64,000 nt of DNA from Escherichia coli (lineage in GTDB: Bacteria; Pseudomonadota; Gammaproteobacteria; Enterobacterales; Enterobacteriaceae): the NCBI RefSeq assembly GCF_045037415.1, contig NZ_CP173438.1. The stretch is one strand, 5' to 3'. The position numbers and the translations under genes are program-made. The notes below the pieces were generated by a model, which did no database searches, was not told where the DNA came from, and saw nothing but the letters and a program-made list of their open reading frames with translations. Below, piece after piece: positions 52,167 through 52,343 of this stretch (the first letter of the stretch is position 1; every line of letters begins with the position of its first letter).

Positions 52167-52188
52167 GCGTTTCTGATTCATTGATTAA

Positions 52189-52222
52189 AGGCCAGCCAGT
52201 AACACAACTGACTGGCCTTTTT
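52189..52222. terminator. Bidirectional intrinsic terminator between convergent yfeX and murP
   Basis: aggccag/ctggcct stem with ~16 nt loop, flanked by A-rich upstream and TTTTATT downstream. Confidence 0.65.
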
Positions 52223-52343
52223 ATTACTGCTTTGACGCCGCATACACTTGATCAACTACTTTCTGCCAAAACAGGGTATTTTGCGGCGCTGACGCTACAG
52301 CTAATAGCCAGCAGAGAAAGATAGAGCATTGTCCGTTTCATAA

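What the first reader, a model, noticed from the sequence alone, without database searches (positions are those of the whole stretch)
52167..52343. yfeX and murP convergent with a 177 bp spacer: yfeW (PBP4B) missing downstream of murQP
In K-12, as I recall, murQ-murP-yfeW form an operon with yfeW between murP and yfeX. Here murP ends at 52344 and yfeX at 52166, separated only by a terminator-like hairpin. The murQP module is present without the co-transcribed low-molecular-weight penicillin-binding protein.
Basis: partly seen in the sequence, partly recalled or inferred. Interest (0 to 1): 0.4.

Follow-up and report, generated by a model that had tools for sequence, protein, structure and literature searches.

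The report
Deletion scar of pbp4b (yfeW)
The short gap between yfeX and murP is the scar of an old 1.2-kb deletion that removed a dispensable penicillin-binding protein gene, an allele carried by about a quarter of sequenced E. coli and here combined with loss of the operon's repressor murR, so it is real but ordinary.

Summary
yfeX ends at 52166, murP ends at 52344, and 177 bp lie between them. In K-12-type E. coli, pbp4b (yfeW) sits exactly there.

The spacer is not only a hairpin. It holds the shared terminator hairpin (52187-52222) plus both ends of pbp4b: its last 36 nt (52224-52259) fused out of frame to its first 82 nt (52260-52341). This is the scar of an 1,184-bp internal deletion.

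The same junction is contiguous in 1,270 of 5,426 complete E. coli genomes. The deleted interior is present in 4,153 others, always single-copy. No diverged second copy was detected in the carriers.

The window is 99.986% identical to the phylogroup B2 strain SK1144. It occurs in 1,046 genomes. In a sample of 60, it was seen only in genomes that also lack pbp4b.

murQ and murP are intact and under strong purifying selection (dN/dS 0.02-0.07).

PBP4B is reported as non-essential and very low in abundance, so its loss is unsurprising. I found no paper describing the loss, but RefSeq already annotates the scar as a pseudogene fragment. Interest is low. The regulatory consequences of the murR loss are the only part worth an experiment.

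The parts
51267..52166 (+). yfeX (Dyp-type porphyrinogen peroxidase), intact, convergent with the murQP operon
   Evidence: ORF; annotated yfeX in the identical SK1144 stretch; NCBIfam Dyp-type peroxidase superfamily model, 301.9 bits
52187..52222 (.). Shared bidirectional terminator-like hairpin (GC core 52190-52217, T-run 52218-52222 on the + strand). It is the same hairpin that follows pbp4b in strains with the intact gene.
   Evidence: RNA folds of both strands; aligned with the hairpin downstream of pbp4b in L003 and L002. The simple terminator scan did not list it.
52224..52259 (-). 3' remnant of pbp4b: last 11 codons plus the original TAA stop (stop at 52224-52226), now out of frame
   Evidence: Aligns to L003 2025-2060. 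Frame 1 reads VVDQVYAASKQ*, against VVDQVYAALKQ* at the C-terminus of PBP4B.
52260..52341 (-). 5' remnant of pbp4b: 82 nt encoding the signal peptide and first mature residues (ATG at 52341-52339). The frameshifted fusion gives a 29-codon ORF, 52252-52341: MKRTMLYLSLLAISCSVSAAKYPVLAESS*.
   Evidence: Aligns to L003 3245-3326. tblastn of PBP4B residues 1-29 gives 93% identity, E = 3.6e-11. PGAP calls it an incomplete hypothetical-protein pseudogene in SK1144 and others.
52344..53768 (-). murP, PTS MurNAc transporter EIIBC, intact (474 aa)
   Evidence: NCBIfam equivalog, 941.7 bits, full length; dN/dS 0.02-0.04 against five other haplotypes
53772..54668 (-). murQ, MurNAc-6-phosphate etherase, intact (298 aa)
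   Evidence: NCBIfam equivalog, 509.4 bits; dN/dS 0.05-0.07
54669..54758 (.). The retained 90 bp of the murQ-murR control region. It carries 10-11 substitutions relative to murR+ strains.
   Evidence: Alignments. Difference matrix: murR+ haplotypes differ by 0-2 among themselves, and the window differs by 10-11 from each. A promoter-like site in the murR direction lies at 54674-54701.
54759..54771 (.). 13-nt filler (CGAATATTACTCA) at the murR deletion junction. It replaces about 860-870 bp (L002 7931 to about 8802): the CRP-like site, the murR 5' region and most of murR.
   Evidence: BLAST alignment to the K-12-like locus; sequence comparisons; this junction is contiguous in 1,046 genomes
54772..54820 (+). 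Decayed 3' remnant of murR, with a further 10-nt deletion. Its first 16 nt (54772-54787, TGTGATGTCACTGAAA) form a CRP-like site with 2 mismatches, in exactly the register of the K-12 site that was lost.
54948..55739 (+). ucpA, now the divergent neighbour of murQ. The mechanical ORF 54882-55739 is ucpA with an upstream TTG, not murR.
   Evidence: SK1144 annotation; NCBIfam UcpA equivalog, 541.4 bits

Best explanation
The 177-bp spacer is the scar of one old 1,184-bp internal deletion of pbp4b (yfeW), the third gene of the murQ-murP-pbp4b operon. The deletion joined codon 28 of the gene to its last 36 nt, out of frame, across a 2-nt 'AC' microhomology. The whole catalytic domain, including the SNTK (SxxK) active-site motif, was removed. 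The signal-peptide coding stub and the operon's original terminator hairpin, shared with convergent yfeX, were kept. Inferred: murQP transcripts now run through a 29-codon dead ORF and stop at the same terminator as before. The allele is inherited. It is common in E. coli, including phylogroup B2 strains and E. coli B (strain C2566). Occasional homologous recombination has moved it onto other haplotypes. In the B2-type haplotype of this window, a second deletion also removed murR and the upstream CRP-like site. The strain therefore keeps a functional MurNAc uptake and etherase pair without its MurNAc-6-P-responsive repressor. Inferred: expression is no longer MurR-repressed. The cell loses only a redundant, very low-abundance DD-carboxypeptidase.
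For: - **Scar structure:** both ends of pbp4b are present in the spacer and align to intact genes.
- **Deletion size:** the deleted segment corresponds to L003 2061-3244, which is 1,184 bp and not a multiple of 3.
- **Partition of genomes:** the junction is contiguous in 1,270 of 5,426 complete genomes. The deleted interior is present in 4,153. The two classes sum to 5,423.
- **No second copy:** blastn with 11-nt words still finds the interior in only 4,153 genomes. tblastn finds no other homologue in the window.
- **Same junction on different backgrounds:** it is identical in B2-type (window, SK1144), ETEC6333, AST205 and E. coli B C2566. All but one of the scar alleles I aligned share a T next to the junction that intact alleles lack.
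- **murP and murQ are functional:** both are full length, with dN/dS of 0.02-0.07.
- **murR loss:**. In a spread sample of 60 genomes, 12 lacked both genes, 4 lacked only pbp4b and 0 lacked only murR.
- **Phylogroup:** the window is 99.986% identical to SK1144 over 50 kb. SK1144 is listed as phylogroup B2 (PMC12366417).
- **Published background:** K-12 has the murQ-murP-yfeW operon with divergent murR (PMC5061867). MurR represses murQP and is released by MurNAc-6-P, and a murR deletion mutant grows faster on MurNAc (PMC9177960). PBP4B is synthesised at only 20-30 molecules per generation, and multi-PBP deletion strains that lack it were grown and analysed (PMC4916385).
Against: - One genome (Z1323CEC0015, L006) has both deletions on an otherwise K-12-like haplotype of yfeX, murP, murQ and ucpA. 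It differs by one base at the pbp4b junction. That requires either very short recombination tracts or a second event.
- Nestedness of the murR loss inside the pbp4b loss rests on totals and a sample of 60, not on a per-genome table.
- No expression data were examined. Termination at the hairpin and unrepressed expression are inferences.
- The exact murQ promoter position could not be checked, because Jaeger & Mayer 2008 is not held in the library.
Confidence: 0.93

Rival explanations
1. Ancestral absence: pbp4b was inserted between murP and yfeX in the K-12-like lineages, and the window shows the original empty site.
For: Only that two states exist in the species.
Against: The 'empty' site contains 82 nt of the 5' end and 36 nt of the 3' end of pbp4b, in the right order and orientation, fused out of frame. 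An empty target site would not contain both ends of the gene.
Confidence: 0.01
2. Recurrent deletion: the same 1,184-bp deletion arose several times independently at a hotspot, which would explain its presence on B2-like, E. coli B-like and K-12-like haplotypes.
For: The scar is found on haplotypes that differ by 3-7% in flanking genes. L006 has a one-base difference at the junction.
Against: Microhomology at the junction is only 2 nt, and I saw no repeats flanking the deleted segment in the alignments. The window, ETEC6333 and AST205 share a junction-adjacent T that is absent from intact alleles. The murR scar, with its arbitrary 13-nt filler, is likewise identical in the window and L006, which only shared descent plus recombination explains.
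Confidence: 0.04
3. Assembly or sequencing artefact: the gene was collapsed out of this assembly.
For: None.
Against: The identical junction occurs in 1,270 independently finished genomes from many laboratories. The flanks are unique sequence.
Confidence: 0.005
4. Adaptive rewiring rather than neutral decay: loss of murR and pbp4b was selected in B2 to make MurNAc recycling and uptake constitutive. A surrogate CRP site recruited from the murR 3' end would preserve catabolite control.
For: - In all five murR+ haplotypes whose upstream region I inspected, the best CRP-like site (TGTGAAGAGCGTCATA) is centred 111.5 bp upstream of the murQ ATG and lies in the deleted part.
- The window has TGTGATGTCACTGAAA centred at exactly the same distance.
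- Sites with 2 or fewer mismatches occur about 3 times per 8.6 kb by chance. An exact-register match therefore has a chance of roughly 4e-4. That figure is post hoc.
- The retained 90-bp control region has 10-11 changes, against 0-2 among murR+ haplotypes.
- murQP is under strong purifying selection.
- A K-12 murR deletion mutant grows faster on MurNAc (PMC9177960).
Against: - The extra substitutions fit simple relaxation of constraint once MurR operators and the murR promoter became useless.
- The murR remnant is decayed throughout, so the TGTGA half-site may be chance.
- The site matches only 8 of 10 consensus positions.
- There are no expression or fitness data.
- pbp4b loss also occurs without murR loss.
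Confidence: 0.15

Closest known systems
E. coli K-12 MurNAc divergon: murR <-> murQ-murP-yfeW(pbp4b) (Jaeger & Mayer 2008, as summarised in PMC5061867 and PMC9177960)
   Same: Same chromosomal position between ucpA and yfeX. Same murQ and murP genes (93-96% nt identity, full length). Same terminator hairpin downstream of the operon. The 90 bp proximal to murQ are retained.
   Different: The third operon gene, pbp4b, is reduced to a 118-nt out-of-frame scar. The repressor gene murR and the best CRP-like site are deleted. The control region is heavily substituted.
PBP4B (YfeW), a class C low-molecular-weight PBP of the AmpH/AmpC-like serine beta-lactamase fold (Vega & Ayala 2006, cited in PMC4916385 and PMC5061867)
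   Same: The first 29 residues of the remnant ORF are 93% identical to the PBP4B signal peptide and N-terminus.
   Different: No catalytic domain, no SxxK motif, and a frameshifted C-terminal stub. This is a pseudogene fragment, not a PBP.
Lineage-associated gene-loss alleles in E. coli (deletion scars that PGAP annotates as incomplete pseudogenes)
   Same: A fixed junction shared by descent across a major lineage, a dispensable gene, and a scar annotated as an incomplete 'hypothetical protein' in RefSeq.
   Different: Nothing unusual, apart from the paired loss of the cognate regulator 2.4 kb away.

Membership tests
K-12-type murQ operon (murQ-murP-pbp4b with divergent murR) | murQ etherase gene present and intact | tested here: met
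   298-aa ORF 53772-54668; TIGR00274 equivalog, 509.4 bits; dN/dS 0.05-0.07
K-12-type murQ operon (murQ-murP-pbp4b with divergent murR) | murP PTS EIIBC gene immediately downstream of murQ | tested here: met
   474-aa ORF 52344-53768, 3 bp after murQ; NF007152 equivalog, 941.7 bits
K-12-type murQ operon (murQ-murP-pbp4b with divergent murR) | pbp4b (yfeW) as the third, co-transcribed gene | tested here: not met
   Only 82 + 36 nt of the gene remain; the 1,184-bp interior is absent
K-12-type murQ operon (murQ-murP-pbp4b with divergent murR) | Divergent murR repressor gene upstream of murQ | tested here: not met
   murQ is followed directly by ucpA. About 49 decayed nt of the murR 3' end remain. 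tblastn with MurR finds nothing in the window.
K-12-type murQ operon (murQ-murP-pbp4b with divergent murR) | cAMP-CAP site upstream of the murQ promoter | tested here: inconclusive
   The best CRP-like site of murR+ strains lies in the deleted segment. A weaker CRP-like site (2 mismatches) sits in the same register in the window. The published footprint and transcription start data could not be read.
K-12-type murQ operon (murQ-murP-pbp4b with divergent murR) | Intrinsic terminator at the end of the operon, shared with yfeX | tested here: met
   The hairpin at 52187-52222 is retained and homologous to the one after pbp4b in L003 and L002. Its function is inferred, not measured.
PBP4B / serine beta-lactamase-like low-molecular-weight PBP | Full-length protein of about 433 aa matching the PBP4B equivalog | tested here: not met
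   Intact PBP4B from L003 scores 892 bits. The window encodes only residues 1-27 in frame.
PBP4B / serine beta-lactamase-like low-molecular-weight PBP | Active-site SxxK motif (SNTK in intact PBP4B) | tested here: not met
   The motif lies in the deleted interior, as shown by the translation of the L003 gene compared with the remnant
Deletion-derived pseudogene scar | Both ends homologous to the intact gene, interior missing, reading frame broken, same junction in related genomes | tested here: met
   PGAP pseudogene flag

The most novel reading that the evidence does not exclude
In phylogroup B2 E. coli, the MurNAc recycling and uptake operon has been rewired. Paired deletions removed its repressor (murR) and its distal PBP gene. 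The murR deletion also placed a CRP-like site from the 3' end of murR in exactly the position of the lost CAP site. murQP would then be expressed constitutively but would still respond to catabolite control. That would give B2 strains lag-free use of MurNAc and altered handling of peptidoglycan fragments in the gut or urinary tract.
Probability: 0.15. Interest if true: 0.45.

Novelty: already known. Interest (0 to 1): 0.2.

Why it matters
- **PBP inventories:** work on low-molecular-weight PBPs, beta-lactam target profiling and peptidoglycan recycling usually assumes the K-12 gene set. About 23% of finished E. coli genomes have no PBP4B, including B2 pathogen lineages (a strain named ST-131 and O127:H6, O6:K2:H1 and O2:K1:H7 serotype strains among the carriers listed) and E. 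coli B strain C2566. About 19% also lack MurR. PBP inventories and regulatory models taken from K-12 therefore do not transfer to these strains.
- **Testable prediction:** the murR loss predicts unrepressed murQP and growth on MurNAc without the long lag. This is easy to test.
- **Otherwise ordinary:** beyond these two points, this is loss of a dispensable gene.

Tried and rejected
- **Insertion versus deletion:** insertion is rejected because both ends of pbp4b are present in the spacer.
- **Second pbp4b copy elsewhere:** megablast and blastn with 11-nt words both find the interior in only 4,153 genomes, one copy each. tblastn of PBP4B and MurR against the whole window finds nothing beyond the scar. 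The source genome outside the window could not be searched directly.
- **RNA element in the spacer or around murQP:** Rfam at E <= 1 over 52000-55000 gave no match.
- **Consensus scans:** the terminator scan did not list the hairpin. The promoter scan gave 3 hits against 2.9 expected. Promoter assignments for murQ therefore stay tentative.
- **Primary regulation paper:** I could not read Jaeger & Mayer 2008. It is not held under its PubMed id, PMC id or DOI. No supplementary files for PMC9177960 are held either.
- **Literature on natural loss of yfeW or murR:** searches returned nothing relevant. This means not found in the open-access library held. It does not prove the loss is unpublished.
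- **Origin of the 13-nt filler:** I checked whether it is a diverged copy of the native 13 nt at the same position. Only 1 of 13 bases match by eye (sequences), so that is rejected. Its origin is unexplained.

Full report
**1. The observation**

The sequence shows the yfeX stop ending at 52166 and the murP stop codon (tca on the + strand) at 52344-52346. The spacer between them is 177 bp.

A 2.6-kb query across the region is 100% identical to E. coli SK1144 and several other genomes. RefSeq annotates that stretch as yfeX, a 'hypothetical protein' pseudogene fragment, murP and murQ.

NCBIfam equivalog models confirm MurP (941.7 bits), MurQ (509.4 bits) and UcpA, and the Dyp-type peroxidase superfamily model confirms YfeX. 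The window is 99.986% identical to SK1144 over 50 kb. SK1144 is listed as phylogroup B2 in PMC12366417.

**2. What normally lies here**

In a K-12-like genome (L002) and in strain EC0585 (L003), a 1,302-1,305-bp gene annotated pbp4b lies between murP and yfeX on the murP strand. Its product scores 892 bits on the PBP4B equivalog.

PMC5061867 describes the K-12 murQ operon as murQ-murP-yfeW with divergent murR, citing Jaeger & Mayer 2008.

**3. What the spacer really is**

Aligning 52100-52420 to L003 gives two blocks:
- window 52100-52259 matches L003 1901-2060;
- window 52258-52420 matches L003 3243-3407.

The spacer therefore contains three elements:
- the hairpin that follows pbp4b in intact strains;
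- the last 36 nt of pbp4b, including its TAA stop (52224-52259);
- the first 82 nt of pbp4b (52260-52341).

L003 2061-3244 (1,184 bp) is missing, and the two blocks overlap by 2 nt ('AC').

Translation shows MKRTMLYLSLLAISCSVSAAKYPVLAES from the N-terminus. In another frame it shows VVDQVYAASKQ*, which matches the PBP4B C-terminus VVDQVYAALKQ*. The fusion is out of frame and gives a 29-codon ORF.

tblastn of PBP4B against the whole window finds residues 1-29 at 52341-52255 (93% identity, E = 3.6e-11) and nothing else significant. The SNTK active-site region lies in the missing part.

The hairpin folds at -27.2 kcal/mol within its 86-nt context (z = -4.1). It is followed by TTTTT on the yfeX strand. 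On the murP strand it forms a 14-bp stem. No Rfam family matches anywhere in 52000-55000.

**4. Deletion, not insertion, and not an artefact**

Having both ends of the gene at the 'empty' site polarises the event as a deletion.

| Query | Genomes (of 5,426 complete) |
|---|---|
| 121-nt pbp4b junction, contiguous (>=80% covered) | 1,270 |
| 1,184-bp pbp4b interior present | 4,153, one copy in nearly all (4,156 places) |
| Same interior, blastn with 11-nt words | 4,153 |

The two classes sum to 5,423 genomes. The carriers therefore have no diverged second copy detectable at the DNA level.

**5. Distribution and history**

Carriers include:
- genomes whose 121-nt junction is 100% identical to the window's (SK1144, AVS0935, 21AR0807, Esc29), and genomes with 100%-identical murR junctions, among them a strain named ST-131 and O127:H6, O2:K1:H7 and O16:H6 strains; an O6:K2:H1 strain carries the pbp4b junction at 97.5%;
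- ETEC6333, AST205 and E. coli B strain C2566 on other haplotypes.

From my own knowledge, ST131, O127:H6 (E2348/69 type), O6:K2:H1 and O2:K1:H7 are B2 lineages, and C2566 is a BL21 derivative.

The junction sequence GATCAACTAC|TTTCTG is the same in the window, SK1144, ETEC6333 and AST205. These also share a T a few bases from the junction that intact alleles lack. I read this as a single event spread by descent and homologous recombination.

One genome, Z1323CEC0015, is unexplained in detail. It has both scars on a K-12-like haplotype: yfeX is 99.8%, murP 98.6%, murQ 97.0% and ucpA 99.5% identical to the K-12-like locus. It has one base changed at the pbp4b junction.

**6.

In SK1144 and the window, murQ is followed directly by ucpA. 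The mechanical ORF 54882-55739 is ucpA with an upstream TTG, not murR.

Alignment to the K-12-like locus shows that L002 7931 to about 8802 is replaced by a 13-nt filler (54759-54771). That segment holds most of the murQ-murR intergenic region beyond the first 90 bp, plus nearly all of murR. A decayed remnant of about 49 nt of the murR 3' end follows, with a further 10-nt deletion.

| Query | Genomes |
|---|---|
| murR deletion junction, contiguous | 1,046 |
| murR interior present | 4,379 |

In an evenly spread sample of 60 genomes:

| State | Genomes in sample |
|---|---|
| Both genes lost | 12 |
| Only pbp4b lost | 4 |
| Only murR lost | 0 |
| Both genes present | 43 |
| Unclassified (a partial match) | 1 |

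The murR loss is therefore nested within the pbp4b loss. That conclusion is sample-based. Of the murR junctions, 1,034 of 1,046 are at least 99% identical to the window, so almost all sit on one haplotype.

**7. State of what remains**

murP and murQ are full length in the six haplotypes compared. Against five other haplotypes they show dS of 0.14-0.27 and dN/dS of 0.02-0.07. They are maintained genes, not decaying ones.

The 90 bp retained upstream of murQ behave differently:
- six murR+ haplotypes differ from each other by 0-2 positions there, although their murQ genes differ by 2.3-5.1 per 90 bp, apart from one identical pair (AST205 and C2566);
- the window differs from each of them by 10-11 positions.

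This fits loss of constraint on MurR operators and the murR promoter once MurR was gone. Adaptive change is not excluded.

**8. Regulation (inference)**

PMC9177960 states that MurR represses murQP and itself from sites in the intergenic region. It also states that MurNAc-6-P releases MurR, and that a murR deletion mutant grows faster on MurNAc.

From my memory of the abstract of Jaeger & Mayer 2008, which I could not retrieve, murQ transcription also needs cAMP-CAP at a class I site, and the murQ and murR promoters face each other.

In the five murR+ loci whose upstream sequence I inspected, the only near-consensus CRP site is TGTGAAGAGCGTCATA (1 mismatch). It is centred 111.5 bp upstream of the murQ ATG and lies inside the segment deleted in the window.

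The window carries TGTGATGTCACTGAAA (2 mismatches) at 54772-54787, centred at exactly the same distance. It derives from the murR 3' end, which reads TGTGGAGTCATTGAAA or TGTCGAGTCATTGAAA in murR+ strains. Sites of this quality occur about 3 times per 8.6 kb by chance. An exact-register match is therefore improbable (roughly 4e-4). The test is post hoc, though, and the remnant is generally decayed.

I treat a surrogate CRP site as a hypothesis with a probability of about 0.15. The safer inference is that murQP is no longer MurR-repressed in this strain.

**9. Consequence of losing PBP4B**

PMC4916385 lists PBP4B among eight redundant class C PBPs. It cites a synthesis rate of 20-30 molecules per generation, and it grew and analysed multi-PBP deletion strains that lack PBP4B. 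The paper of Vega & Ayala 2006, cited there, says in its title that the activity is not essential. Natural loss is therefore unsurprising and probably nearly neutral.

**10. Comparison with what is known, and novelty**

The locus is a reduced form of the K-12 MurNAc divergon. The scar is already annotated as a pseudogene fragment by PGAP in public genomes.

I found no open-access paper that describes the natural absence of pbp4b or murR in B2 or E. coli B. The phenomenon is still an ordinary lineage-level gene loss. I rate it as already known, in the sense of database knowledge, with low interest (0.2).

The practical points are that K-12 PBP inventories and MurR regulation do not apply to roughly a fifth to a quarter of E. 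coli. The murR loss also gives a simple prediction that can be tested.

Noticed in passing
window 54669-54947 (between murQ and ucpA): murR, the repressor of murQP, is deleted. A 13-nt filler (54759-54771) joins the 90 bp upstream of murQ to a decayed remnant of about 49 nt of the murR 3' end. The same junction is present in 1,046 of 5,426 complete E. coli genomes.
   Followed up: yes
window 54772-54787: A CRP-like site, TGTGATGTCACTGAAA (2 mismatches), is centred 111.5 bp upstream of the murQ ATG. This is exactly the register of the near-consensus CRP site that murR+ strains have and that was deleted here. It may be chance or a functional replacement.
   Followed up: partly
window 54669-54758: The retained murQ control region carries 10-11 substitutions relative to six murR+ haplotypes. 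Those haplotypes differ from each other by only 0-2 in the same 90 bp.
   Followed up: yes
L006 (Z1323CEC0015) 1963-2144 and 4470-4748: One chicken isolate has both scars on a K-12-like haplotype of yfeX, murP, murQ and ucpA, with a single-base difference at the pbp4b junction. This needs either very short recombination tracts or an independent event.
   Followed up: partly
L008 (E. coli B strain C2566) 1468-1646: E. coli B strain C2566 (a BL21 derivative, from my own knowledge) carries the same pbp4b scar with murR intact. This common expression host therefore lacks PBP4B.
   Followed up: partly
L002 (K-12-like) 3968-4206: K-12-like genomes have 239 bp between yfeX and pbp4b, against 57 bp in EC0585. 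The extra sequence includes a second copy of the terminator hairpin about 180 bp from the first. Its origin was not examined.
   Followed up: no
window about 32800-47700 (eut operon): The ethanolamine utilisation operon is uninterrupted, with eutA and eutB adjacent in the SK1144 annotation that matches the window. From memory, K-12 carries the CPZ-55 prophage in this operon. I did not check this.
   Followed up: no
window 53772-54668 (murQ): murQ differs by 5.5-6.8% from the five other haplotypes (dS 0.21-0.27). It is noticeably more diverged than neighbouring yfeX (1.2-2.7%) and ucpA (about 3%). This points to a locally deep or recombinant haplotype structure.
   Followed up: no
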